Positions 6,560-57,490 of a stretch of 64,000 nucleotides of DNA are shown here, in pieces. The stretch is taken from the NCBI RefSeq assembly GCF_009834535.1, contig NC_045696.1, positions 68,574,001 through 68,638,000 of the forward strand, read 5' to 3'. The DNA is from Camelus ferus. Lineage: Eukaryota. Under the pieces are notes generated by a model. That model did no database searches, was not told the origin of the DNA, and was given only the letters and a program-made list of their open reading frames with translations. Every line of letters begins with the position of its first letter. The first letter of the stretch is position 1. Both the position numbers and the translations under genes were made by a program.

Positions 6560-6740
6560 GGACTTAGACTCCCTTTTCCACCTCCCAACCCTGCTCCAGC
6601 TTCTCTTCCTGGATTCCCTTCTAAGTGAACGGCACCAGTGTTCATCCAGCCACTTGAGTCTGCTTGACTCTCCCAGTTCTACGCAGTCACTAAATATTTT
6701 CAAACTTCTCTCAAGTCTGTCACCTTCTCTCCTTCCTACT
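6560..6740 (+). mobile_element. L2 LINE, left half (interrupted by the duplicated segment)
   Basis: cctgctccagcttctcttcctggattcccttctaagtgaacggcaccag...caccttctctccttcctact resembles the L2 consensus. Confidence 0.6.
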
Positions 6741-6757
6741 TTTTTTTTTTTCTTAAT

Positions 6758-7172
6758 TGATTTCCTTTTAAACCAAAGAAAATGGGGTTTGGAAGATGCT
6801 TTCATTAGTAGAACTGACTTAGCTTTTTTTGAAATATACAAAAAAAAAAAAAAAAAAAGACACTCCTAAAACCCTTAAGTTTTGTTAGAAAGGAACAACC
6901 AATGATGCTGCGAAATGGCTCAAGGGTGTAGTTGCTCTAGGTTTCCCCTCCTCCCTCCAGCCCTCCACCTCCTCTAACTCAGTGTCACTCTCATCCCACA
7001 GGGCATGAAACACGCCCCCCCCCCCTTCACTCAGGCAATGACCTTGTGCACCTGGCCCGACTCCTGAGAGTCCGAAGATGAGGCACCTTCCACAGTCACA
7101 GATGCAGCAGTGTGACTACAGAATTGACAGAGCTAAGGAGAAAATCTACCAGGAGGCAGCATATGGCAAACT
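6758..7172 (-). repeat. Inverted copy (arm A) of the unique segment 15755-16140
   Basis: Manual alignment to the reverse complement of 15755-16140, ~85% identity with homopolymer-length indels. Confidence 0.95.
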
Positions 7173-7780
7173 AGCTCTCCTAGTCTACACACCTGCCATG
7201 CCTTACCTGGACCTCAGCAGTGCCTCCTGGTCCCTCCATGGTTACTCAGTCCATTGTCCACACTGAAACCAGAGTGACTGTCTAAAGCTTTAATCTGATA
7301 ATGCTGCTCCCCATGGTTAATGTCTCTTCGTTTTCTTTAAAGTCTAAGTCTCTTAAACTTCCTATGATCTTTAATAATCCAGCCTTTTCTTACTGCTGCA
7401 CCAGCATCTCTCATCATTTGCTGCCTCCAATTTTCATTTTACCCATTAAATAACTAACAATCCTTGAATGTTTCATGTTCTCTTTTACTTTTAGGACTTG
7501 GTGGAAATTGTTCTGTCTTCCTCAACTGCTGTCCCCCTCTGTCTGCTTCTTGTGCCATCACTTCTTTAGTGAAGCCCTCCCTGACATCTCAAATCTGGAT
7601 TAAGTCCTCCTCCCCTCTTCCTCAGCCCTTAGTAGTACTGATTACACTATACTATAACTGCCTATTTACTTCTGCCTCCTCAAATGAGACTGTGAGCAGC
7701 TTGAGGGCAGGGACTGCCTACTGCCTGTCACAGGGCATGATACCTTGTCGGGTGCCCAAGGAGATTTGTTGAATATTTGT
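7173..7780 (+). mobile_element. L2 LINE, right half to the 3' end
   Basis: cctagtctacacacctgccatgccttacctggac...tccattgtccacactgaaaccagagtgac...ctgtgagcagcttgagggcaggga...atttgttgaat. Confidence 0.7.
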
Positions 7781-10194
7781 AGCCATTAATACTAATTTTT
7801 TATTTAGTGTCACTATTAACTCTTCTAACACCTCTGCTCTTACCACAGTGGCTGACATGTTAGGCACTCAGAACAGTTAACTACCTTAAGCAGTCATCTA
7901 TCATCTATTATGTCTCTGATAAATTGCAGTGCCCTTTTGTAAATATGATTTAATTTAATCCTATCAACCTTCCCACCTTGAAGTAGGTTTTATTATCCTC
8001 AACTAAAAGATTTTTAAAAAACTAAGGCTCAGAAACTTTAAATGGTTTTTTCATAGTCAAATTATTATCAGGAATTGTGTTCAAGCCCAGCTTCTCTTTC
8101 CAGTTGAAGTAAGTATATAAGTCTAAGAATAAGGGAAGAATAATATGCAGCTTCCAAACTCTCTGTCCAGTCTTCCCTTTATCAGATTTGTTTAAAGAAA
8201 AATAACTTAATGTCTTTGCTACACATTTTCCCAGTAAAAACTAAGAGAAAAGGTCTTAATACTAGGGATATAGAAGAACACTTATTTCCAATGCATATCT
8301 GTGAAGTCTATCAAAATGGAATGTAACTCTGAGAAGCAAATGACAACCCTTGTATGAGCAAATCTTTATCTGCAGGTGTTTGATAGGCCTGAGAGTCAAC
8401 ACAGAAAAATGATATAAAATCACAGAATTTTTAATCAGTGCATCAGACTGGAAAAAGAATGATGTGGATAATGATCATGACTGTCTCCTGACTGGAATAT
8501 AGAATGCTTACGTTTTCACAGTCAAGTTAGACAGATTAGTATGTGTAGACGGATTAAATGGCTGTCTATCTGATATTGTTGGAAAGGTGAAGTAAAGGCA
8601 TCTCTGAATAAATACTTCTCACCTAAAACATTATCTAAAATTCTACTATGAGAGAACCCAGGCAAACATTCTTTTGGGCAGAGAGTTTATATAAGAAATC
8701 CTGATATAACACCCCCAGGAGGTCATGTAACAGGAAAAGCATCTTGGCTTTTGAAATCTGCTTTCTGTCTCTGATGATTACTTGTCCTATGAGCTGGGCA
8801 AGTGACTCTTGCAACACACCAACAGGGCTTTTTTCTCCTCTGTAAAATGAGGAGTAGGAGCACATGGCCTCTGCATCCCCTCAGCATTACCATTGCTGTG
8901 GATCTAGGGGTAATCAGTGATCGTATCACCGCACGAAGGCTGACCTATCTCTAATTCCTCCCCTCCTGGATTCCTATATTCTCTCCAAATACTATCAGTG
9001 CTGGGTGGACCACTGGACAGCCAGGAGTTGGCAGTATATTTGTGAAAGTTATATAAATCAGGGAAATCCCAATTATTCCTATTTATTTCTCATCATCTTT
9101 TTTTTTTTTTTTCTTGGCATCTGACATGGATTTCTAGAGTACGTATCCAGGTAGAAAGCATTCCTGGTTTTTACTGAGCCCTAGTTTCATCTTTATTAAA
9201 ATGAAAATACATATTATGTACTTAGTCTCCTTTGCAGACTTCTTTTGCCTTGCCTTGAGTTATGTGAGGTTTTAATGGGCATTTAAGATAGTGTTTAACA
9301 GGATGCCTGGCACAATTAGGCAGTTCAGGAATTTAGTTTTGCATCCCTAATTTTGCTTTTCCAGCTGCAGGATCAAGTAAAACCAACATACCCATCCTTA
9401 GACCAAACTTGGCCTATACAACATGCAGCATCTGACTTTTAATGGTTCCTCATGCCTGGAGAAGTAAACCAATAATATTCTTCTGAGTCAACCACCTCTC
9501 AGTAAACATGGTTCCTTTTGCAGAGCCTGATTTCCCTTATATGTGTGAAAGTGAGGCAGCATCTAATTAGAGCGAGGTTGCCTTAACGAGAAGTTGCTTC
9601 TCATTAAGACTCTCATCCTTGAATTGCCTTCCCTGATCTGGAGACACCCACTTAGCCAAGACTCCCATTGCTGCTTCCTGCCACTAAGAAATCATAAATG
9701 ACTAGAGGGTTAAATGGTTAGATGGTCTGACAATGATGTCAGTTGCTGTAACTGATTTCATGTGACAGCCAATTATAACATTCATTCAGAAGAAAATAAA
9801 GAAGCCTGTTGTCATAGTAGTGGTTGGCTCCGAGCAGGATGCATACCTCCAATTGATGCATGTGCCAAATATCAACTTGTTGGGTACACTCTAGGAATAA
9901 TTGAGACTGTACTTCAGGGAGAAAAAAAATTTGATATGGACAGTGTTTTCCATGCTTGTGCCACAGTGCCTCCCCTCTGTACAACCATGATGTCCCTCTG
10001 ATTTCTAATTCCTCTTGCAAGAATGTTGCCTTTCAGGGATTTTTACACTTGTTAGGTACATTGTGTGAAATCGATGCTGTGGGGGACACACACAGCAGCG
10101 GCGATGGTGGGGATGCTGTGTGATGGTAGTCAAAAGCTGCACCTGCCAAGGCAGCAATAGCCTGCGACAAGCAGAAACCTCATCACACAGCAAC

Positions 10195-10410
10195 TCCTAG
10201 CTGGACAGACCTGGGTTTGAATCCTGATTCCTCCAATCTATAGCTTTAAGACCTTGGGCAAGTTGTTTCATCACTCCAAGCATTATTCTCCTCATCTTTA
10301 AAATGAGACTATTAAAACTCCCTACCTTATGCAGTCACTATGAGGATTAAATGAGGTGGTCTGTAAAGTGCTTGGCATGGGGTAACCACTCGGTGAATCG
10401 TGGCTACTGT
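10195..10410 (+). mobile_element. MIR SINE
   Basis: cagacctgggtttgaatcctga...gaccttgggcaagtt...cctcatctttaaaatgag...gaggattaaatgag. Confidence 0.8.
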
Positions 10411-11979
10411 CCTCTTGACAGGGGTGAGGGTAATAATACTGTGGTGTCCTCAATACTTTCACAAGTCCACAAACTGAGAAAGAAAATTGGAATGTGGATT
10501 TGGCCCCCAAATCCAGTCCCTTTAAGCCTGAGGAAATATTGTGATCTGGATTTTTCTGTTTTTGTCCCCAATCTTCCTAATTCAAGACAGCTTCCTCAGA
10601 GAACATTTGGTAAAAATGGTGGGTTGAAAACATGTATGTTGTTTTGCTCCAGTCCCAAATTCTATTTAAACAACAGTGAAGAGAGGTATCTTAAGAGGAA
10701 AAAATCCATAGGACTAGAGAAAGTAAAGAGACAGAGTTGCAAGCAATGAAATTTCAGGAAGTGAAATGCAAATAAATGAGTGCTAATTAACATAGCAGCC
10801 CAGGAAAAGCTGAATCTTAAGCCAGCACTGGTAAAAGTGGAAAAAGAACCCATTTACATGCAGAACCCCTCAAAAAATGAATTCACACCAAGTACCTCAG
10901 GACTTTGGAGTGAATAGGCTTGCTTACATGTCTGTTTATGACATAGTTAAATCTCTAGATCCCCTCCCTCAAGTGTACACCTTCCCCACTGTGGTAGAAG
11001 ACTGGAAATGTATTCTCTGGATAGAATAAAACAGTTGCTCCCTGGACTAGAGGATCCTGGGCACAGTTGACAGTAGGGTACCATAATGAAAACAAGGACG
11101 AGAAAATATGTGTATTCAGCTGGGAAGAGTGTTTGTATAGGTGTAATAAAAAACAGAACACTGACCTAAACCAAGTTAGGATGTAACTGTCATGAGAATA
11201 TTTGGGTAGGCTGAAAGGATGTGTATATCTGATAATGGAAGAGGGAGAAAACTGAAAAATCAAGACGTAGTAATATCTAGAATAAATACAAGACAAAACA
11301 AAAACCTAGCTGAAATAATTAAAAGCAGTTGACTCTAAGGAGGGGACCATATAAGGTTGGAGGAGTGGAGGACTACTCCTTTCTGAAACAAATCTTGTGG
11401 AATCATCTACTCTAAATGTAAATGTGTAACTGATTAAAACAAGCACATAAACTAAAAAGCAGGAGTAAACCTTCTCAAATGGACGTGAGCTCTCTGCCTG
11501 TGGACTTCTCTGACTCTAACAGGTTTCTGGGCAAGCCCAAAACACAGTATATTTTCCTCACCCATCACAGGAAGAGTGTGAAAGAGGATGTGTTTGGGAA
11601 TGTAGTTGCACTTACCTACCCTATTAGAGTGACCAATGTTTAAGAACAGTCACAGTTTTTATAAATGCAAATCCCACACAATTTTTCCTAAGTATTTTCC
11701 CCTTGCAGCTTACCAAGGGATTCCTAGGTAGCTGCATCTCGACTGAGTCACTGGGCACTAAAAACCTGCCAACACAGACAGGAAGTAGTCAGGAGAAACA
11801 TCCAGTCACTGATAGGATGGCGGTTAGCAAGGTGCTAACAGCCAGTAGTCAGCAGTACGTAAATAATCACAATAAGAACTATGCACATGAGTGTAAAACT
11901 TCTAATTTATGAAAGACATCCTTAAAAAATGCATGCCCTCATTGTGTCTATTTAATAAGATACTCAAGTATAAGTATCC

Positions 11980-12232
11980 TGAGTCAACAACCCCATCTAG
12001 GCTCCCAGCCGATAGGCAGGATGAACTGCAAGGCACGTAAGCCACACCTTGGATGTCCAGCCCATTGAGCCAGGTATGCCAAGCCCGACTTCTATCTGAC
12101 TGCAACCCCGTGAGTCCCCCAGGTGAGAATCACCCAGCTGAGCCAAGTTAGTCCAAAGAACGATGAAAGATAATAATACAGTTTTGTTTTAAGCCACTAA
12201 GAGTTGGGGCAGCAACAAATAAACACTACACA
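11980..12232 (+). mobile_element. MaLR MLT1-type LTR fragment
   Basis: ccttggatgtccagccc...cacccagctgagcc...gttttgttttaagccactaagagttgggg. Confidence 0.7.
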
Positions 12233-12974
12233 GATGATCCACATCAGCCCCCTCATTTACCAAAACAGGGGGTGGCTTGGCCAATGTCTCAGAGCAGAGC
12301 GATGGCTGAGTCAGGACCAGACTCAGGCTTCCAGACCTTGAGGCTATGGGTTCATCACCAGAGACATTTAATCTATACTAAATGCTGCCAATACTTTCTT
12401 CTCCCCTTCTTCCTCCTCCCCTTCTCTTCTTGTAACTTTTTATTTTGATATTTCAGACTTACAGAAAACTTCAAGTACAAGAGACTCCCATATACTCCTC
12501 ACCACGATGCACCAATTGTTCGCATTTTACCTCATTTGCCAATGTTCTTTCAAAGAGAACATTATTCCACGGGGAGGCTGCCCACAATGCTGATTCCCGC
12601 CGAGTGGTTAGTCACTGCTCAGATCATCCCAGCAGGACTGAGAGTAGGGATGGACACCTGGGAGTGAGTTGGGACTAGGAGGAAAAGCTGTGGAGAAAAG
12701 GGAACTGTTAAACAAGGAGAAAGGGCACAGAGAAGGGAGAGCAGAATCACGCCAGACCAGTGTATTCCCACCAGACATTCCTGGGGGCAGTCCCTTAACT
12801 GGCCTGACGTACTGAGTCCATGCTGAACTTGAAGTCAGAAGGCACAGGTTTGAACCTTGCTACTAGTTGTATGACTTACAGTGACTTTCCTTCTTGCCTC
12901 TGGGCTTTGGTTTTAGCTTTCTTTATAAACCAGATTAAATAAGCCAATGCATGTGAACTGGCTGAGTGAATGGT

Positions 12975-13155
12975 GCTAAGGAAAGGAATTTTAGTCATCT
13001 GTATCTGATAGAATCATTTGGCAAGCTTTTTAAAATGTTGGTGCTATGGCCCCATCTTCAGAAATTCTTATTTAGATGATCTGGGGTCCAGGTACCATAG
13101 TATTTTAGAACTCCTGGAAAGCTGTTAATGTGCTGCCAAGGTTGAGAGCCACTGG
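12975..13155. mobile_element. MER5-type hAT-Charlie DNA transposon
   Basis: agaatcatttggcaagctttttaaaat...tgctgccaaggttgagagccactg. Confidence 0.65.
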
Positions 13156-13754
13156 GATAGAAAACAATGCCTTTGTCCAGGGTAGGCTGACACTCTTGGA
13201 CCCTCCTGGCCTAGATGTCCTCCGCCATGGCCCCTTTCTCACTTCTGCTACCAGTCTCCTCACCAAAGTAAAACCTCACAATTAGGTATCCTCCATTCTA
13301 AGCCTGGTGTGCTTCACTGTTATTTAGTCATCTCATTTCTGCATTGTCCATTTCTGCATCCTTAATAATTTATGCTGGAAAGATTTCTTCCCGGAAGTAA
13401 TTCCTTGCAGATTCTCAGTCTCTCTTTTCCTAGTCAGAGTTTAGCCTTTGTGCACAGGTTTTCTGTCTTCACAGCAGAGCTCAACAGCTGTCGTTCTTCT
13501 CTACTAGCTCTTTATGCACCTAATTGCTACCATACAGATCTAGGTAATTTGGCAGGAATTGTGACTCATATGCAAATACCTCTGAAAAGAAGTGTGGGAA
13601 GGATTTTATATTCCTTGGTGGTCTCAGGGCAAAAGAATAATTTCCCAGATGAGTATGACTCTTCTTTTATTATAACATTTTTTTCTGGTACATTTATTTC
13701 CTATTTTTACTACAAATATCCCAGAGATGAACTACTTACTTCATTTTGCAGTTT

Positions 13755-13923
13755 AAATCCTTCCTTACTTCCTTTCCTTCTTCCTACTTTCCTACATTCC
13801 TTCCTCCCTCCCTCCTTTCCTTCTTTCCTTCCTTCCTTTTTTCCTTCCTTCTCCCTCCCTCCCTTCCTCCCTCCCTCCCTCCCTCCCCTCCTCCTCCTTC
13901 CTTCACACCTCCCTTCTGCCTTC
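13755..13923. repeat. (CCTT/CCTC)n pyrimidine tract, resuming at 14379-14440
   Basis: Directly visible. Confidence 0.9.
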
Positions 13924-14378
13924 TGTTAAAAAATTAATCATGACACCTGTTAAAGACAAGGCAGACTTTATTCAAAGGGGACTCACACTAGTTGTAGGGA
14001 CCACTGCAATGGAGTTTTACAATAGGAGAGAGAGTTTGGGCTCAACTCTGAATACAACAAAGAAAAGTGGAACTTACAGCCAAGGAGCAGGATGGGGATC
14101 AGTGATGGAAAATTACTAAGAAAAACATTAGAGATAAGGGGGATGGCAGGCCTGAGTGATCAGACATCACCTAGGGGATGATGGAGGATGAGGAACCTGC
14201 ATGAATGAGAGTGATCAGATATGGAGGATGAAGGATTCTAGCTAAACCAACTTCACAGGATTCTTCCTAAAATCGGACAATGTGAAGATAAACACAGAAG
14301 CCTGAAAGTCAAGGCTTGGTTGGGAAGAGAATTCAGAGGAGTCTGATCAGAGTTTGGTCAAGGAGAGAATCTTTGTCA
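13924..14378 (-). mobile_element. Solo ERV1-type LTR (MER31/MER67-like)
   Basis: TG...CA termini, tttatt (minus-strand AATAAA) near 13967, end gtttggtcaaggagagaatctttgtca; ccttc on both flanks. Confidence 0.75.
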
Positions 14379-14429
14379 CCTTCTTTCCTCCGCTACCCTT
14401 TTCCTCCCTTCCTCCTTCCCTTCTTCCTT

Positions 14430-14830
14430 TCCTTCCTTCCTACAAAGCATTTACTGAGCCCCTGCCATGGATCTAGTGGTCTGTTGGGCACTGAGGCTGA
14501 AAAGATGAGTAAAAATGTGTTCTGCCCTGTGAGGCACTCCTGGTCTAGGATTAGAGAGAGAGAAACACAATACAATTGGAAAGATGTCATAATGGAGTTA
14601 TACAGACTTCTGCAGAAGCATTCACCTGTGTTTGGGATATGTACAGAAGAGTGTATATTTTAGCTGAATTTGGAAGGATGGGCTTGAGATTCCTTCAGGC
14701 AGAGGTTGGAGGAAAGGCATTCTGGACAAAGGGACAGTATGTGCAAAAGCCTGGATGTGAAGTAACAGGGTGTGTTAGTAGAATTGCCATGGTAGTTCAG
14801 AAAACAGAAGGGTTTTCTTAAGGGAGGAGA
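14430..14830 (-). mobile_element. L2 fragment
   Basis: caaagcatttactgagcccctgccatgg...ggaggaaaggcattctggacaaagggacagtatgtgcaaaagcctgga. Confidence 0.7.
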
Positions 14831-14984
14831 GATGATGAATGAGGGATTACTTCTAGGACTGGCTGGTAGAAGAACTTCTCATGGAAAACATGTGTCTTAA
14901 TCCACTTTTGTCTGAGGTCTGGTTAGGCCCCCATTTCTTAGGTTCCCAAGCTGTATTTTCTTAGCATCTGTGGAGGCTGCTTTC

Positions 14985-15436
14985 CAAGCCCACCTCTTAC
15001 TGCTCACCCTGTGTTCACTATGTTCCAGACACACAGGCCTCCTTCCTGTTCCTGACTGTAAACTCATGCCTCAGGACCTTTGCTTGTGCTATTCCCTTTG
15101 CTTAGAAATCCCAGATCTTCACATGGTTACCTCCTTTTTGTCATTCAGGTCTCAATTCAAATAGCACCAACTCACAGAAGCCATCCTGACCACTTCATTT
15201 GCAGTGACCCTTCCCAAATCCAGCCACTCTCCCTGAACTCATTCTGTAAAACTTTCTATGACTTTCATTATTATATCAATTGATCTTATTTGTTTACTTG
15301 TTCATATGTTTACTGTCCATCTTCCTCTTTTAGAATAGAAACTGCATGAGGGCATGGCCTTTCTTATTTTCCTACTGAATCCCCAGAACTCAGCCAGTGC
15401 AGGGCATTCAGTAAAGGTTCAACAAATTTGCTGAAT
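14985..15436 (+). mobile_element. L2 3' end
   Basis: tgttccagacacacaggcctcc...cctcaggacctttgcttgtgctattccc...tcattcaggtctcaattcaaat...caacaaatttgctgaat. Confidence 0.75.
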
Positions 15437-15754
15437 AGAGCAAGCTCGAACATATTTTTGTCTGCAGCCATCCCTTCCCAAGGACCACAATACTTACATC
15501 CTCCACCCCCATTCCCGGTGTTAAGGTATCTCAAAGAGAAGATCAGAATTGTTATTGATGAGCATGGGAAGAAAACAAAAAGAAATTGAGAGCCCTAAGG
15601 AATACTCTGGCTTGGTGAGGCCTGATAAAATGCCCATGCACTACAACAGAGAGCTTGTCCACCTACACCCCGCACGCAGGCATCTCCCAGATCCTACGTT
15701 CTCCTCCCTCCGGGTGATGTTGGAGGCTCAGCTGCTGCTCTGCCCTCATTTTCC

Positions 15755-16140
15755 AGTTTGCTGCATCCTACCTCCCCGTAGATTTTGTCCTTAGCTCTGT
15801 CAGTTCTGTAGTCACACTGCTGCATCTGTGACTGTGGAAGGCACCCATCTTAACACTCTCAGGAGTCGAGCCGTGTGCACCAGGTCATCGCCTGACTGAA
15901 GGGAGAGCATGTTTCATGCCCTGTGGGTGACACTGAGTTAGAGGAGGCAGAGGGCTGGAGGGAGGAGGGGAGACCAAGAGCAACTATAACCCTGAGCCAT
16001 TTGGCAGCTTCGTTAGTTGTTTTTTTCTAACAAACCTTGAGGGTTTTAGGAGTGTCTTTTTTGTATATTTCAAAGCTAAGTTGATTCTGCTAATGAAAGC
16101 ACCTTCCAAATCCCATTTTCTTTGGTTCAAAAGGAAATCA
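15755..16140 (+). repeat. Source copy (arm B) of the inverted duplication; unique non-TE-like sequence
   Basis: Reverse complement of 6758-7172; embedded in continuous unique sequence. Confidence 0.95.
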
Positions 16141-16924
16141 TTTCCAAAAAAAATCTTTAAAAAAGAAAAAAAGCAAATAATCTGAGGAATGTGTTTATTT
16201 TATCTTGCTTCCAAGGAAGGAAGACTTTGCATCCACGTAAGACAGTCATTTTTCTGGGCCATGAGTGTTCAGGAGCAAATCCTGTAGCTAAAGGCAAATT
16301 TCCATTTCAGCCTCCTAGACGGCCTTAATTACCTGGCAGAAATTGCAGAAGGTGATGCCAAGTGGTATTTGAACCTGTCATTTTCTCGTACTGTTTTGGG
16401 GATTCAGATGTTTTCCACTCTAATGTGGCAAAATATTCAATCAGCTTAAATTATGCATGCACTCCAGATCAAGCCAGCTAGATGTCAGGAGCAATTGGAT
16501 TTTTTTTTTTTTTTTGAATTTGGGAGACTGAAAGCCAGCAAGATAAAAGTTTAGAAGAGCTAGATACAAATTAACTTTGCAGTAAGGGGGAAAACAAGCA
16601 TAGAAGTGAGAAAACTTTTCCTCCCTGGCTAGACCAATTTCTGGGATCACTAGACAACTTTCATTAGTAACATTCTGGCAGTAATGAACAGACAGTTTAA
16701 ATGTCCAATGCCTGCTTTGAGTTTCTAAGTCTCCTTCATTTTTAAAAGTAGATGTCAGGTAACATGTTATATTTGGCACCTACTTTGTGATTGTGACAGT
16801 ATTGCCACTTCTCTGTGTCATTGCATTCATTTTTCAGGGTAGGAAACTGTCAGGGTCAAATTGACTGTATAGAGGTGGTTCTGGCACTTCTGGTTACCTT
16901 AAATGGTAGACCTGATTAATTCTG

Positions 16925-31950: not shown

Positions 31951-32072
31951 TTTATTTGTTTGTTTGTTATTAGCATTTACTGAAATCACAAGTTAGATAA
32001 CTTTGGAACTGGGAGGAGTCTTATGGGTCATTTAGTCTAAACCCATTATTTCATGGATAGAGAAGGTGAAAC

Positions 32073-32529
32073 TGAAGGGAAAACCGGGCTGGTCTAACAA
32101 GATAACTCACAGGTCTAGGAATGTGAAGGAGAGGCTGGGCTGGGCTAACAAGGCAAATCTAAGTATTGGAATACTAAATCTGAGTTCTGCTGGACTAACT
32201 TGTAAATCTAAGTTAATTAGTGTTGGTTTGCTGTTTATGTTTTTTTGCTAGCCAGCTGGATTTTCAAAGCTACTTATCTGGCTTTGGAATGTTGGTTTGC
32301 TGCCTCCCCACCTCCACTTTTGTGATGATAATGCTGCTAAAGCTGTTCCATGCCTATTGGCCGAATACCCCAAGCTTGTACTTTACCCTATAAAACCTCA
32401 TGCGCACATCTTGGAGGTGCTCAGAGCTTCGGAGCAGAAGCCCCTCTGAGCCCGCCGGCGTAATACATCTGAGTACTCCAACCCTCCGAGTGGTGCTTGT
32501 TTCTTGACTGGCCTGTCGTTTCCGTAACA
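32073..32529 (+). mobile_element. Young 457-bp solo LTR (4-bp TSD, ERV1-like) inserted into a MIR
   Basis: TG..CA ends; TSD AAAC at 32069-32072 and 32530-32533; ATTGG 32356, TATAAAA 32389, AATACA 32462; CpG-rich 3' half. Confidence 0.85.
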
Positions 32530-33895
32530 AAACAAGGAAAAGTGACTTGCCCAAAGTTGCAGAATTTGTAGTTTGATAAAATCTGGAGCTCAGGTATTCA
32601 GACTCTGATCCACTGAGCTTCCCCCTTTCAACATCACATATATCCAATAGACCCAGGGAACAGGAAATTTAGTTCTAGATTCTGGCATTTCCATTGGTGT
32701 GCTCTGTGATTTTGGTGTCAATTCTTTTTTCTCTCCAGGTCTCAGTTTCCTCCTCCATAAGATGGGAACAAGGCAGTATTTCTAAAGGCCATTTCTAAGT
32801 TCAGTGTGTTGTGTCTTAAACAGTTCATTTAAGCTAGTATGGAAGGAATCGGTGTTTTCGAATTGTCTTCCTCTACAAGCACTTCCATTGCTTTGCTCAG
32901 GGAGACAAAAGAAAAAAAAAGAATGCTTTTGTTTCATGTGCTGTTTTAAAAGGAAATCGATTATTCATTTCTAATCTTGTTTGTTTGCAGCTGTGTTGAG
33001 TTAAATAGCACACCAGGCTTACGGTTAAGCTAGGCGGCTTCCTCAGAAAGCAGCATGAGGGTTGCTACTTTGTTTTCCTTATCTCCCTCAGGGTGCTGAT
33101 CACACGGCCTGCCACCCGCCCGGTCCTTGTAAATCGGTTTAGGGATTTGCAGAGACCACACTGTTCCTCCCGCTCCTGGGACCCTCGCCACCCACTTAGA
33201 GATAATTACTCATTCTGCCTGTTCCCAAGTTGGTGAGGAGCCAGCCAGCTCCATTTGCCTGCCTCATGAATGCCTGAGTTCATCCACAAAAGAGAAGTAA
33301 TATTCTGAAAAGATATGTTAATTAACGTGCCTCCCAACTTCCTTTGGCTGCAGTGAAAGAGGAAAGTTTTTCCTTTTCTCTTGTGGTTCTCATTTTGCAA
33401 GTTTTCTTTGTTGTCACTTTGAATGGATATGTAGGCTGTCAGAGATGTGTGCCTTCCTACCAGAATGTACTTACTGAGCCCAGTACTCTACTGAGACTTA
33501 GTGCCTGTCCTCAAGAAATGTAGAAACCAGGGGTGGTGGGAAAATGGGTGACTCCTGGGCTAAAGTCAGTATATTAATTAATATAATTCGAATGCTAGGT
33601 GTAAAGGAGATATGAACTGTGCCTGGGACTCAATAAAATTTCCCTGGAAGTGGTAGAATTTAGGACTGAAAGATAGGTAGAATGTAAATGAGTAGAAAGG
33701 ACAATTTGGGCAACAAATTTCTTTAACAAACTTTATAACTGATATTAATTAAATGTCAACTCAGCAGCATGCCCTATGCAAATTAGATGTTGGAAGATTT
33801 ACTTTCAAGATGGAAAAGATGAATCTGTTGGTCAAAGATAACATTCTATGGGTGATACCTAAGCTTTTGGCCAGAAGAACTGGGTAGATCATTTT

Positions 33896-33935
33896 GAGAT
33901 CCTTCAGCTTGGATTCTAGTAGGACAATAAGAAAC
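33896..33935 (+). repeat. 40-bp perfect direct repeat, copy 1
   Basis: gagatccttcagcttggattctagtaggacaataagaaac, identical to 34654-34693. Confidence 0.95.
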
Positions 33936-34653
33936 AGAAAAGTAGATTGGGGAGTGAAAGGCAATAGTTCAAGATGAGTCTAAAGTAATTTCCAACTAGA
34001 AAATTCAATTCTGTAATAGAATTTAATATTGCCCTTTAAAAATTTTCTCCAGAGACCTCAGTCTACCCTCTCCCACCTCCACAACACACATACCACACAG
34101 ATGCACACACAAAGAGCTATAACAAAAACAAGTGTGCTTAATAATGACACAGTAGGAAATCACTGCAGTTTCCAAACTTCCTCATGCGTGCAGAGATAGT
34201 ATTGTGCCTGACAAGCAAAAAGAGAGTTTGGAAAATCATATTGGATGAGATCTTGTCAATGGGAGGTTTTGCTATCAAGAAATCTAATGAGGCTTAAAGA
34301 AAATTGATAATTCATTAGCATTCTTGAACATGCCCCCACTTAGCTGCATGGTAATTATTGAGTAGCTACAGAGCAGCTCAGAAATATAGTGACAAGACAG
34401 ACTGCTCCATCCATCAAATCCCAACAGCTATAATCATCTAATGAATGCTACATGAATCAAACAGTGAAAAATAATAATAATATCTTTGCTTCCCCCTGAG
34501 TCTTTCAACAAGGTTTCCAGAGCCTAAGGCAAATAGATTCACTGGAAAGTTTGACTCCCTCTATGGTGCAAGGCCACAGTTGACTAACAGCTATAGAACA
34601 ATGGTACTCCTTAGACACAGGGAGGAAGTAGGGTAGATGGTCCTTTAGTCTAG

Positions 34654-34693
34654 GAGATCCTTCAGCTTGGATTCTAGTAGGACAATAAGAAAC
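34654..34693 (+). repeat. 40-bp perfect direct repeat, copy 2
   Basis: Identical to 33896-33935. Confidence 0.95.
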
Positions 34694-34851
34694 TGAAAGC
34701 AGGCATGGCTCTTACATGAGGCTTGGAGTTTTCAGGGCTCTAAAACAGAAATGGGCTTCTCTCTAGGGCTGGCATCAGGGAGACATCCCCAGAAGCCTTA
34801 GATCCAGTCCATCCAGCACTGAAATGGAGAGACACATGGAATAGTGACAGG

Positions 34852-54686: not shown

Positions 54687-54841
54687 GGGGGAGGGTATAG
54701 CTCAAGTGATAGAGTGCTTGCTTGGTGTGCAGGAGGTCCTGGGTTCAATCCCCAGTACCTCCTCTAAAAATAGATAAGCCTAATTACTTCCCTCACCCCC
54801 ATGAAAATAAAATAATAAATAAAATACTTAAAAAAAAAAAA
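54687..54841 (+). mobile_element. tRNA-derived SINE, camelid Vic-1-like
   Basis: ggggagggtatagctcaagtgatagag (A box), ggttcaatcc (B box), A-rich tail; TSD agaaaaatcta(a/g)a at 54674-54686 and 54842-54854. Confidence 0.85.
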
Positions 54842-56525
54842 AGAAAAATCTAGAAGTGCCCTGCTCTAGGAGAACTTACCATCAGATTGGGAGGCAGAAA
54901 GATATTCTGGAGAAAGTTATTGAAAAGTAACCTACTGACTAATATGACAGAAACAATTATGAAATAGTAATGACCTTCATTTAAGCACCTACTCAACTGA
55001 GCACTATGTATTTTGCAGACCTTGTCTCACTGGGGACTCATAATAACCCTTTGAAGAAGGTCTGGTTAGCCCCATTATCCCCATTTTACAGACAAAGCGG
55101 CTGAGAAAAGGTGAGAGAGTCCCACTGGGCTCAGTGACCACACTTAACAATAAACATTTGCATATTGTTTTCCAAAGACTCTCAGCAGGGATTGAGAGAA
55201 ACTTGGTGAGTAATCATCTCAGGGCTGTGGTCAGCCAGCCTTGAAGGTAGATGGAAACATGTCATGGGTGGGCCAGCCTGAGTGTTTCTAGGGAGTAGCA
55301 CAAGAGGTGGTCCAGGTAGATGACTCAATACCAGCCTGACTGGAGTGATGGCAGACTTCTTACATCTATTGGCAAGCCTGGAGCAGTTCATAAATATGTT
55401 TACAGAAGCCTTGCTGGGGACAGCATGCTCTAGAAGGAGTTGCTGTAACAGCAGCATGGGGGTTAGGAATAATTAAATAACATTTTCAGCTCCCCCAAGA
55501 GCCATTAGACTAAAACAAAGAAGCAGGTGAGAAGAGGAAGTTGAGAGTTATTTGTGTTTTGTTAATGGGCCTTGAATCAACAGACCTCCACCCCGCCACC
55601 AGCAGCAGGCAGTCCCTGCAATCTAGGGAGACTGTCTACTCACAAAGCTCCCATTCAAGTGCCATGGAGGCTGGCACAATGCAGCAATCAGACAAGCCCT
55701 GGGTTCTCCATGGCGCTACACCTGCACCTGTTATCCCAGCAGAAACTTCCTTATCAGCCCTTAGAAACTTACAAAATGGAGGAGGCTGCCTATAATCAGT
55801 TCTTTTCCAGCCTTTGTGGGTAGAAATATATAAGCCAACATCATGGGCTAATTGGCCTCTTTGGAGAACCATGGAACCTAGGCAGGTCTGAGCAGCCACA
55901 GGTCTACCATATAGTGTCGACATGACTGAGTCCCTCGGACTATGAACCAGCTCTGGCTGTGAGGGTGGGAGTCGGGTGGGATTGATGGCTGTAGCTAGAA
56001 CCAGGGGGATGGGAGCTGCATTAGCATCCACCCCACTAATGTTGGAGAGAATACATGAGCTGGCTTGTCAGGTGCGGAAAGAGGCTGAATGCTTTTTTGA
56101 TTGCTATAATTGCGGCAAATTGGACACTTGAGAGCGCCTCTTTAATGAGAAGAATCTCATGGATGAGACTTAGGGAAGAGGCCCCTCTTCGGATCCCTCT
56201 CCTTTGTCCCATGTGTATGAGATAATTCCCCAGTCATTATGGATTGTGAATGGGCTGCTAATTTTAGTTGTGCAAGCCAAACAAAGACCCTGGTTGGTGG
56301 ATCCGGAAGGTGATTCATCTGATACGATGTTTGTATGGTGGAAGTGAAAGGTCTTGATAAGTGCCCCTGATGATTTCAAACTTTTCAACCAAAGAGCTGG
56401 AGAATTTTTTAAGTGGCCATCTCAGCACTGGCAACCAAATGTGGCCTCTGCTACCTTCTTTTCTGCCCAAGGTCCTTCTGTCTTGGCAGTCCCGGGCGCT
56501 TTGAGTGTGGGTGTCCTCCTCTAGG

Positions 56526-56586: not shown

Positions 56587-57490
56587 AACTGGGGAGAATC
56601 AGGAAGGCAACAGTGAAGCCAAAGTCAGTGAAAGAGCCACAGTAAAAAGGCCCAGCAAAATAAAGTGACTTAGCCAGGGGAAATAACAGGTACGTAAGCA
56701 AAGCCAACTTTGGAATCAAGCACAGTACAATCTTTTGGCTATTATGACCCTGTAACTCTCAGCTCAATGAGCTCAAGTGCCTCTTATAAGCAATAAGCAA
56801 GCCAAAAAAAGGAGTCAAGTTTCTCCAGTCACCTTCAGCTTTCCTCAGACATTCCTGAACTTCTGTCCCCACTCAGGTTCTGTTGGGCCTTAAGGAGACC
56901 AACTCATCTCAGTTTGCCGGAGACTTTCTGGTTTTAGCACTGCATCTTGGGAAGCCCCTCAGCTCCAGGTGAACCATACGTCCTGCCTCACCAGGGCAGA
57001 GTATCGGGGGATAAGAGAATGGAGAGGTAAGAGCTAGATTTGATGAACTTTGGATATAAAGCAAAAGGCCCTGATGTTATCTTTGTGCCCCATTTTTCAT
57101 CAAGTGCCAACCCAAAATACTACCATTTTCCCTCTCTTACAACATATGCCTCTTCAGCCTTTATTGTGCTACTGATACAGTTGTCTTCTCTGTGAGCAGC
57201 TTGAGGGTGAGGACTCCTCCCTGCCTAGGGGCAGAGTACCAAGCACCTAGCAGGCCCTCAGTAAAGGTATTATTGAAATGGATCCATCACCCCCTTGACC
57301 TTTCTGTCTGTAGGTCCAAAGAACATTCATATGGGCATGCTCTTTGTGGTAACTTGGAGGCTTGCATGATAGAAGTAGAAAAGAATGGGCCAAGGCCCTT
57401 GTTAATCTCCTACAGATTTGCTGTGTGACCTTGATTAAGTTACTTTCCTTCTCTGTCAGTTTTCTAATGAGTAGTAAGAGAAACTGATAA

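What the first reader, a model, noticed from the sequence alone, without database searches (positions are those of the whole stretch)
6740..16173. ~400-bp unique segment copied in inverted orientation 9 kb away, splitting an L2 element
Seen: 6758-7172 aligns end to end to the reverse complement of 15755-16140, at roughly 85% identity by manual count with homopolymer indels. The segment does not resemble any SINE, LINE or LTR I recognise. Arm A sits between two halves of one L2 that would be contiguous without it (...cttctctccttcctact | agctctcctagtctacac...), whereas arm B lies in continuous unique sequence. Inference: B is the source and A is the derived copy. Arm A's left poly-T (6740-6751) corresponds to B's genomic A-rich tract (16146-16173). 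There is no long TSD, only an 'act' microhomology. This fits a locally templated repair insertion, or an internally primed reverse-transcribed copy of a local + strand transcript. If the region is transcribed through, the arms could form a ~400-bp non-TE dsRNA closing a ~8.6-kb loop (ADAR substrate or circularisation aid). Alternatively the event duplicated a regulatory element.
Basis: partly seen in the sequence, partly recalled or inferred. Interest (0 to 1): 0.7.

Follow-up and report, generated by a model that had tools for sequence, protein, structure and literature searches.

The report
Old local inverted duplication, camel genome
A 420-base piece of non-coding DNA was copied upside-down about 8.6 kb away, millions of years ago; this is a known kind of small copying accident, and nothing yet shows that the two copies do anything.

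Summary
Arm A (6740-7172) is an inverted copy of arm B (15755-16173): 88% identical over ungapped columns, BLAST E 4e-119, and no third copy in the window. K2P divergence is 0.13 (roughly 10-45 My, depending on rate).

The junctions show 3-nt and 2-nt microhomology. There is no target-site duplication of 5 nt or more, no L1 endonuclease site and no canonical poly(A) signal, and A's T-run can be templated on B's genomic A-rich tract. Best reading (0.55): a DNA-templated local non-tandem inverted duplication, a class catalogued in human genomes. The real rival (0.3) is an RNA-templated copy made in cis: the copy ends in an A-rich tract (0.7% of positions), starts on an initiator/acceptor-like motif, and its ancestor was probably CpG-rich.

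L2 identity of the flanks is recalled, and their contiguity could not be shown with window data. The arms could form a ~370-bp duplex, but there is no G-U bias or homogenisation, and transcription, editing and genome-wide copy number are untested. Probably neutral.

The parts
6560..6737 (+). Left flank of arm A: old pyrimidine-rich repeat relic, L2-like (name recalled)
   Evidence: Pyrimidine fraction 0.68, top 1.3% of windows; weak placement on another relic at 27253-27176 minus, 23 of 500 shuffles as good
6738..6740 (+). ACT at the left junction; its CT matches the last AG (16172-16173) of B's A-rich tract, a 2-nt microhomology
   Evidence: Sequence
6740..6757 (-). 3' end of the copy: T12 run plus 6 nt; on the minus strand TT, A2, G, A12, G, resembling the second half of B's tract (TTT, A6, G, A7, G)
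   Evidence: B's tract is 2.5 copies of a 16-nt unit
6758..7172 (-). Arm A, the inferred derived copy, with longer homopolymers than B (T7, A19, C11 on the + strand)
   Evidence: 341 of 386 ungapped core columns identical to B; 5 of 5 interior indels longer in A
7170..7172 (+). ACT at the right junction, equal to the first 3 nt of B (AGT, 15755-15757); 3-nt microhomology or 3-nt target duplication
   Evidence: Sequence
7173..7770 (+). Right flank of arm A: continuation of the pyrimidine-rich L2-like relic (name and continuity recalled)
   Evidence: Pyrimidine fraction 0.62-0.66; its 3' part hits another dispersed relic at 57182-57241, E 8e-4; contiguity with the left flank not shown
15640..15754 (.). 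CpG-richer sequence just upstream of arm B, not copied; possible old promoter or enhancer (inference)
   Evidence: 15640-16039 holds 9 CpG; 1.3% of 400-nt windows hold as many
15741..15757 (+). Start of B lies on a pyrimidine tract plus CAG (splice-acceptor-like) that also fits an initiator consensus with +1 at 15755 (consensus recalled)
   Evidence: about 9% of strand positions lie this close to one or the other motif
15755..16145 (+). Arm B, the inferred source; no Rfam match, no Pfam-positive ORF, no unusual fold of its own
   Evidence: z -0.50
16146..16173 (+). Genomic A-rich tract at which the copy ends
   Evidence: 21 A in 28 nt; tracts with at least 20 A in 28 cover 0.7% of strand positions

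Best explanation
A one-off, local, non-tandem inverted duplication made at DNA level in the germline of a camelid ancestor. A broken or stalled DNA end inside an old L2-like relic (ending CCTACT on the + strand) annealed by 2 nt to the end of the A-rich tract at 16172-16173. It copied about 420 nt of the opposite strand and returned to its own locus through a 3-nt microhomology at 15755-15757 (template switching, MMBIR or microhomology-mediated patch repair). Both copies have since drifted about 12% apart without conversion, and the pair is most likely a neutral scar. Shown: the two copies, their divergence and the junction letters. Inferred: polarity, mechanism, age and neutrality.
For: Source and copy are 8.6 kb apart and there are only two copies in 64 kb. 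Junction microhomologies are 3 and 2 nt; there is no duplication of 5 nt or more, the target does not fit TTTT/A or even four pyrimidines plus two purines, and neither arm has AATAAA or ATTAAA. The tail need not be untemplated: A's end has an internal G between A-runs like B's tract, which is a 16-nt tandem repeat. The class is common: 21 of 166 localized rearrangements in a human long-read survey were opposite-strand non-tandem duplications (PMC5829575, passages), and 277 inverted duplications of median 284 bp, mostly with 1-15 bp microhomology, were found in 1,019 humans (PMC12350158, passages). A second, 45-bp local copy sits in the same window. Mismatches run along the whole arm (0-20% per 40 columns) and the longest identical run is within chance (p 0.17).
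Against: The copy ends in an A-rich tract in the orientation that reverse transcription would use; such tracts cover only 0.7% of strand positions. Its other end sits on an initiator/acceptor-like motif (about 9% by chance). Four TG/CA-opposed columns suggest a CpG-rich, possibly promoter-like ancestor (P 0.003-0.013 under background CpG in simulation). The empty site was not seen in any outgroup, so microhomology versus a 3-nt target duplication cannot be told apart.
Confidence: 0.55

Rival explanations
1. RNA-templated copy made in cis. A + strand RNA starting (or spliced) at 15755 was primed at the genomic A-rich tract and reverse-transcribed by L1 ORF2p without endonuclease use, or by a repair polymerase. 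The cDNA patched a nearby break (class 2 TSIP-like, but local).
For: 3' end in an A-rich tract in sense orientation (0.7% of positions) with a purer, longer A-run in the copy; 5' end on an initiator/acceptor-like motif; CpG-rich ancestor and upstream sequence. RNA-derived patches with microhomology and no TSD are described (PMC5110952, parts 1-2 of 4), and transcripts can template break repair in human cells (PMC12065846, abstract). Two RNA-seq runs of one study hold 0.97 and 0.93 of the words of 15400-16600.
Against: Described TSI donors are distant, not nearby. A-tracts may also attract DNA-level switches (PMC5829575 notes simple repeats at some target sites). The 5' and CpG features were noticed after the fact. 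The two RNA runs hold flanks as well as the arm, have 937 and 847 million letters of contigs (about half of the DNA runs' 1.8-2.0 billion, so DNA carry-over is likely), a third run of that study holds none, and none was laid. Strand skew over 48 kb is weak (0.021 +/- 0.012).
Confidence: 0.3
2. Both arms are independent insertions of an unrecognised low-copy retroposon or of a third, distant source; or B is itself part of an old retrocopy that A re-duplicated.
For: Both arms end in A-rich tails, and a CpG-rich ancestor decaying in both copies is also what a young insertion looks like. Genome-wide copy number and Dfam were not testable. Local re-duplication of a retrogene is described (PMC5829575).
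Against: Two independent insertions within 9 kb need a high copy number, yet 64 kb hold no third copy. No target duplication around B (best candidates are 10-mers with 1 mismatch, three of four A-rich). B's tail is a 16-nt tandem repeat. No look-alike in earlier scan notes.
Confidence: 0.07
3. The arms are the scars of an inversion of the 8.6-kb spacer made by staggered breaks.
For: Inverted duplicates bracketing a segment are what staggered-break inversions leave (own knowledge). L2 contiguity, which would exclude this, was not shown with window data.
Against: Both flanks of A keep the same strand composition and, by my recall of L2, continue each other; CpG-rich sequence runs across B's left border.
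Confidence: 0.05
4. Whatever the origin, the pair is now used as a long intramolecular RNA duplex (ADAR substrate, splicing or circularisation aid) or as a duplicated regulatory element. Not exclusive of the origin models.
For: Predicted pairing gain about -398 kcal/mol on either strand, 368-373 base pairs, longest helix 44-54 bp, similar to edited human duplexes (median -410 kcal/mol, 297 bp; PMC11838218, passages). Camelid SINEs are nearly all ancient MIRs (PMC8605555, passages), so such duplexes may be scarce there.
Against: Any 88%-identical inverted copy pairs this well. No G-U bias (14 vs 19, p 0.49) and no homogenisation. Only 4,597 of 497,429 predicted non-repetitive human duplexes are edited, with a median loop of 509 nt against 8582 here. 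No credible coding exon among 137 of 345 ORFs of at least 55 aa, so a host transcript is not established.
Confidence: 0.07

Closest known systems
Localized non-tandem duplication, opposite strand (Frith and Khan, PMC5829575; passages read)
   Same: Short segment inserted nearby in inverted orientation, source left intact; span within their 50-20,000 nt range; template switching suggested as cause
   Different: Theirs are recent human variants; this one is 12% diverged in a camelid, and its end lies on an A-rich tract of the source, which the passages I read do not describe
Inverted duplications of the 1,019-genome long-read map (PMC12350158; passages and one section read)
   Same: Size (median 284 bp) and short junction microhomology, read as replicative origin
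   Different: I did not check how many of theirs are dispersed rather than adjacent; theirs are polymorphic
Class 2 templated sequence insertions (Onozawa and Aplan, PMC5110952; parts 1-2 of 4 read)
   Same: Patch of 73-414 bp-like size, microhomology, no TSD, no poly(A) signal; RNA or DNA template possible
   Different: Donors there are distant; here the donor is 8.6 kb away
Class 1 TSIP / L1 target-primed retrocopy
   Same: A-run at the 3' end abutting the target
   Different: No TSD of 5 nt or more, no TTTT/A site, no AATAAA, tail explicable from genomic sequence
Non-repetitive long dsRNA candidates (dsRNAscan, PMC11838218; passages read)
   Same: Long, stable predicted duplex from non-TE arms
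   Different: Loop far longer than in edited examples; no editing or transcription shown

Membership tests
Localized non-tandem inverted duplication | Two copies, opposite strands, nearby, not adjacent | tested here: met
   88% identity, 8582-nt spacer
Localized non-tandem inverted duplication | No further copies (source is unique) | tested here: inconclusive
   None in 64 kb; no genome held; metagenome scan empty but so was its control
Localized non-tandem inverted duplication | Short microhomology or blunt junctions | tested here: met
   3 nt and 2 nt; the empty site itself is inferred
Localized non-tandem inverted duplication | Ancestral empty site, spacer not inverted | tested here: inconclusive
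   Same-strand composition of flanks; left flank places weakly and right flank does not place on a local relic; no outgroup
Class 1 TSIP / L1 TPRT retrocopy | Target-site duplication of at least 5 nt | tested here: not met
   At most 3 nt, itself matching the source
Class 1 TSIP / L1 TPRT retrocopy | Insertion at TTTT/A | tested here: not met
   Target reads CCTACT then AGC
Class 1 TSIP / L1 TPRT retrocopy | AATAAA 10-30 nt before an untemplated poly(A) | tested here: not met
   Only rare variants (AATGAA, TTTAAA, AAGAAA) found; tail matches a genomic tract
Class 2 TSIP | End-joining features without TSD or poly(A) signal | tested here: met
Class 2 TSIP | Donor from a distant region; polymorphic | tested here: not met
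   Donor 8.6 kb away; 12% divergence argues for an old event; polymorphism not tested
Transposable element family | Many dispersed copies or a library match | not testable with these tools
   No Dfam or genome; only the window-level negative
ADAR-edited intramolecular dsRNA | Long stable duplex possible | tested here: met
ADAR-edited intramolecular dsRNA | Both arms in one transcript, A-to-I sites on both | not tested
   No reads laid; word-sharing RNA runs may hold it as DNA
L2 LINE (flanks of arm A) | Match to L2 consensus with contiguous coordinates across the insert | tested here: inconclusive
   No consensus library available; identity recalled; local-copy tests weak or negative

The most novel reading that the evidence does not exclude
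Arm A is a fixed germline record of RNA-templated repair in cis: a transcript from a then CpG-rich promoter at 15755 was reverse-transcribed from a genomic A-tract right to its first base and used, without L1 endonuclease, to patch a break 8.6 kb away. If so, part of the local inverted duplications now filed as DNA template switches would be RNA-derived and recognisable by A-tract ends and start-site ends, and each would plant a long non-TE duplex in its own locus.
Probability: 0.25. Interest if true: 0.5.

Novelty: new member of a known kind. Interest (0 to 1): 0.2.

Why it matters
As a single locus it matters little: local inverted copies of a few hundred bases are a catalogued class, and unchecked notes from this scan list several more on the same piece of this genome. 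Its value is as a test case. If ends of such copies are enriched genome-wide for A-rich tracts and transcript starts, RNA-templated repair in cis would be a measurable source of heritable structural change. A 370-bp non-TE duplex might also be a rare ADAR substrate in a genome poor in young SINEs, but nothing here shows that.

Tried and rejected
Whole-genome copy count: no genome held. Reads on the locus: nothing was laid, so transcription, strand, splicing, editing and any outgroup empty site remain open. Metagenome scan with a 22-nt piece of the arm found 0; the control with the window's SINE also found 0, so the negative is uninformative. L2 contiguity by a local relic: left flank 23 and 91 of 500 shuffles as good, right flank placed elsewhere (95 and 26 of 500), anchored start ranked 75-207 of 220; nhmmer linked neither junction-proximal flank to another copy. 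Coding content: 137 of 345 ORFs of at least 55 aa scanned (all 106 starting in 1-22000, 31 elsewhere); 4 had Pfam hits at E up to 0.01, none credible. Rfam: 1 tRNA-like hit in the window, 0 in 15400-16600. Own structure of B: z -0.50. The 38-nt identical run as a sign of conversion or constraint: p 0.17. G-U bias: p 0.49. B as a retrocopy with its own TSD: none found. Strand skew as a sign of long-term transcription: weak. Host gene from earlier notes: nothing. Assembly artefact rejected: the arms differ at 12% of sites, and 14 runs (10 flagged as possible sources of this DNA) hold the B region at share 1.00 (arm A was not queried).
Full report
OBSERVATION. Self-BLAST of the window gives one strong internal match: 6745-7172 against the reverse complement of 15755-16153, 428 columns, 81.8% with gaps, E 4.5e-119. 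The next of 10 hits is a 45-bp repeat. An affine alignment has 356 matches, 49 mismatches (33 transitions) and 6 gap events, K2P 0.134. The core without tails has 45 differences in 386 columns (11.7%, 95% interval 8.6-15.3%), and K2P 0.096 after dropping CpG-affected columns. There is no third copy in the window. The spacer is 8582 nt.

SETTING. The window is mammalian non-coding DNA, 40% G+C. Of 345 open frames of at least 55 aa I scanned 137 against Pfam; 4 had weak hits and none is a credible exon. Rfam finds only a tRNA-like element at 54691-54763. I recall it as the camelid SINE vic-1; SINEBase names vic-1 as a simple SINE of camels (PMC3531059, two passages), but I did not test the sequence match. 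Unchecked earlier notes also call this genome camel. No host gene was identified. With the rate cited in PMC8605555 (2.5e-8 per generation, five years; passages) the copy is 10-13 My old; with slower rates of 1.5-2.2e-9 per year (my recall) it is 22-45 My old.

POLARITY. Both flanks of A are pyrimidine-rich on the + strand (0.68 left; 0.62-0.66 right), unlike B's flanks (0.54, 0.49). By my recall they are consecutive pieces of L2. The window could not prove this. The left flank places weakly on a relic at 27253-27176 and ends at the same ACT (23 of 500 shuffles as good for 80 nt, 91 of 500 for 50 nt). The right flank placed elsewhere, and its expected start ranked 75-207 of 220 offsets. All 5 interior indels are longer in A (two-sided p about 0.06), a soft hint that A is the freer copy. 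B as source is likely, not shown.

JUNCTIONS. Read on the minus strand, A starts with AGT, the first three bases of B (15755-15757), and ends in an A12 run followed by G. B's tract at 16146-16173 holds 21 A in 28 nt and is part of 2.5 copies of a 16-nt unit. A's end (TT, A2, G, A12, G) resembles the second half of that tract (TTT, A6, G, A7, G), so the tail can be wholly templated, with the tract's last AG matching the target. This alignment is not unique. The three marks of L1 target-primed insertion listed in PMC5110952 (parts 1-2 of 4 read) are absent: no duplication of 5 nt or more, a target reading CCTACT/AGC rather than TTTT/A, and no AATAAA or ATTAAA in either arm.

MECHANISM, BEST READING (0.55). 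A DNA end in the relic annealed to the end of B's tract, copied about 420 nt and returned through 3 nt of microhomology. Proximity is the main argument: an ordinary retrocopy would rarely land within 10 kb of its source (inference). The class is known. In PMC5829575, 21 of 166 localized rearrangements were opposite-strand non-tandem duplications, with template switching proposed (passages). PMC12350158 reports 277 inverted duplications of median 284 bp, most with 1-15 bp microhomology (passages; section 16); I did not check how many are dispersed. L1-induced breaks can also leave local inverted duplications (10.1101/2024.12.14.628481, passages), but no L1 lies at this junction by my reading. 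Unchecked notes list similar cases on the same genome piece, for example a 550-bp inverted copy 12 kb from its source; these are leads only.

MAIN RIVAL (0.3): AN RNA TEMPLATE IN CIS. Three features point this way. The copy ends in an A-rich tract in sense orientation, and such tracts cover 0.7% of strand positions. It starts on a motif that fits both an initiator and a splice acceptor; about 9% of positions lie that close to one or the other (consensus recalled). Four TG/CA-opposed columns imply a CpG-rich ancestor: P 0.003 and 0.013 from background ancestors at 10- and 15-fold CpG decay, and up to 0.29 with 16 ancestral CpG (400 runs each, background runs reached only 9.3-9.5% divergence against 11.7% observed, so these P values are somewhat too low). 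The 400 nt from 15640 still rank in the top 1.3% for CpG, though arm B alone does not (12%). All three were noticed after the fact. RNA-derived patches are described with distant donors, RNA-templated repair is shown in human cells (PMC12065846, abstract and outline only), and new retrocopies insert somewhat non-randomly relative to parents, between chromosomes (10.1101/2023.07.12.548661, passages). Searches (listings only) showed no paper on fixed RNA-derived copies within 10 kb of the source; the library lacks most subscription journals and I read no supplements.

EXPRESSION. Of 24 runs listed for 15400-16600, two RNA-seq runs of one study hold 0.97 and 0.93 of 116 words, four hold 0.04-0.10, and a third run of that study holds none. 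The two holders cover flanks as well as the arm, and their contig sets are about half the size of the DNA runs', so they may hold it as DNA. Nothing was laid, so transcription, strand, splicing and editing are untested. Strand skew over 48 one-kb blocks is 0.021 +/- 0.012, no clear sign of long-term germline transcription.

FUNCTION. A read-through RNA of either strand could pair the arms: gain about -398 kcal/mol, 368-373 bp, longest helix 44-54 bp. Any such copy would. Transition mismatches give G-U 14 times on one strand and 19 on the other (p 0.49), the longest identical run is within chance (p 0.17), and B alone folds no better than shuffles. In humans 4,597 of 497,429 predicted non-repetitive duplexes are edited, with a median loop of 509 nt (PMC11838218, passages). 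I put present use of the pair at about 0.07.

OTHER RIVALS. An unrecognised TE or third source (0.07) cannot be excluded without a genome; the metagenome scan and its control were both empty. An inversion scar (0.05) is disfavoured by the flank composition but needs an outgroup.

VERDICT. A real, old, local inverted duplication: a new member of a known kind, probably neutral. The one open point of interest is whether its template was DNA or a local RNA. Interest 0.2.

Noticed in passing
window 33896-33940 and 34654-34698: A 45-bp direct copy (97.8%, one gap-free mismatch) 758 nt apart; the second copy abuts what looks like the start of an LTR-like element. A second, younger local non-tandem duplication in this window.
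   Followed up: partly
window 32801-33200: Most CpG-rich 400 nt of the window (11 CpG, observed/expected 0.54); looks like unique sequence, a candidate promoter or enhancer.
   Followed up: no
window about 32070-32530: CpG-rich LTR-like element (9 CpG in 32151-32550), apparently young and lying in a MIR-like relic (labels recalled).
   Followed up: no
window 54688-54843: tRNA-derived SINE with A-rich tail (Rfam tRNA 49.2 bits at 54691-54763); recalled as camelid vic-1.
   Followed up: partly
window 15803-15838 (+), shared by arm A: A 13-bp stem with G-U pairs on the + strand of B, overlapping the longest identical run between the arms; the whole region's fold is not better than shuffles.
   Followed up: partly
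window 15764-15775 and about 16154-16172, minus strand: On the minus strand B has a donor-like site near 15773 and a pyrimidine tract plus AG at its other end, so a minus-strand exon nearly matching the arm is conceivable; the copy runs about 19 nt past the donor.
   Followed up: no
runs X17-X20: Four RNA runs labelled viral, pig gut, gut and liver metagenome hold 4-10% of the words of 15400-16600; this could be a short conserved or expressed piece, or chance.
   Followed up: no
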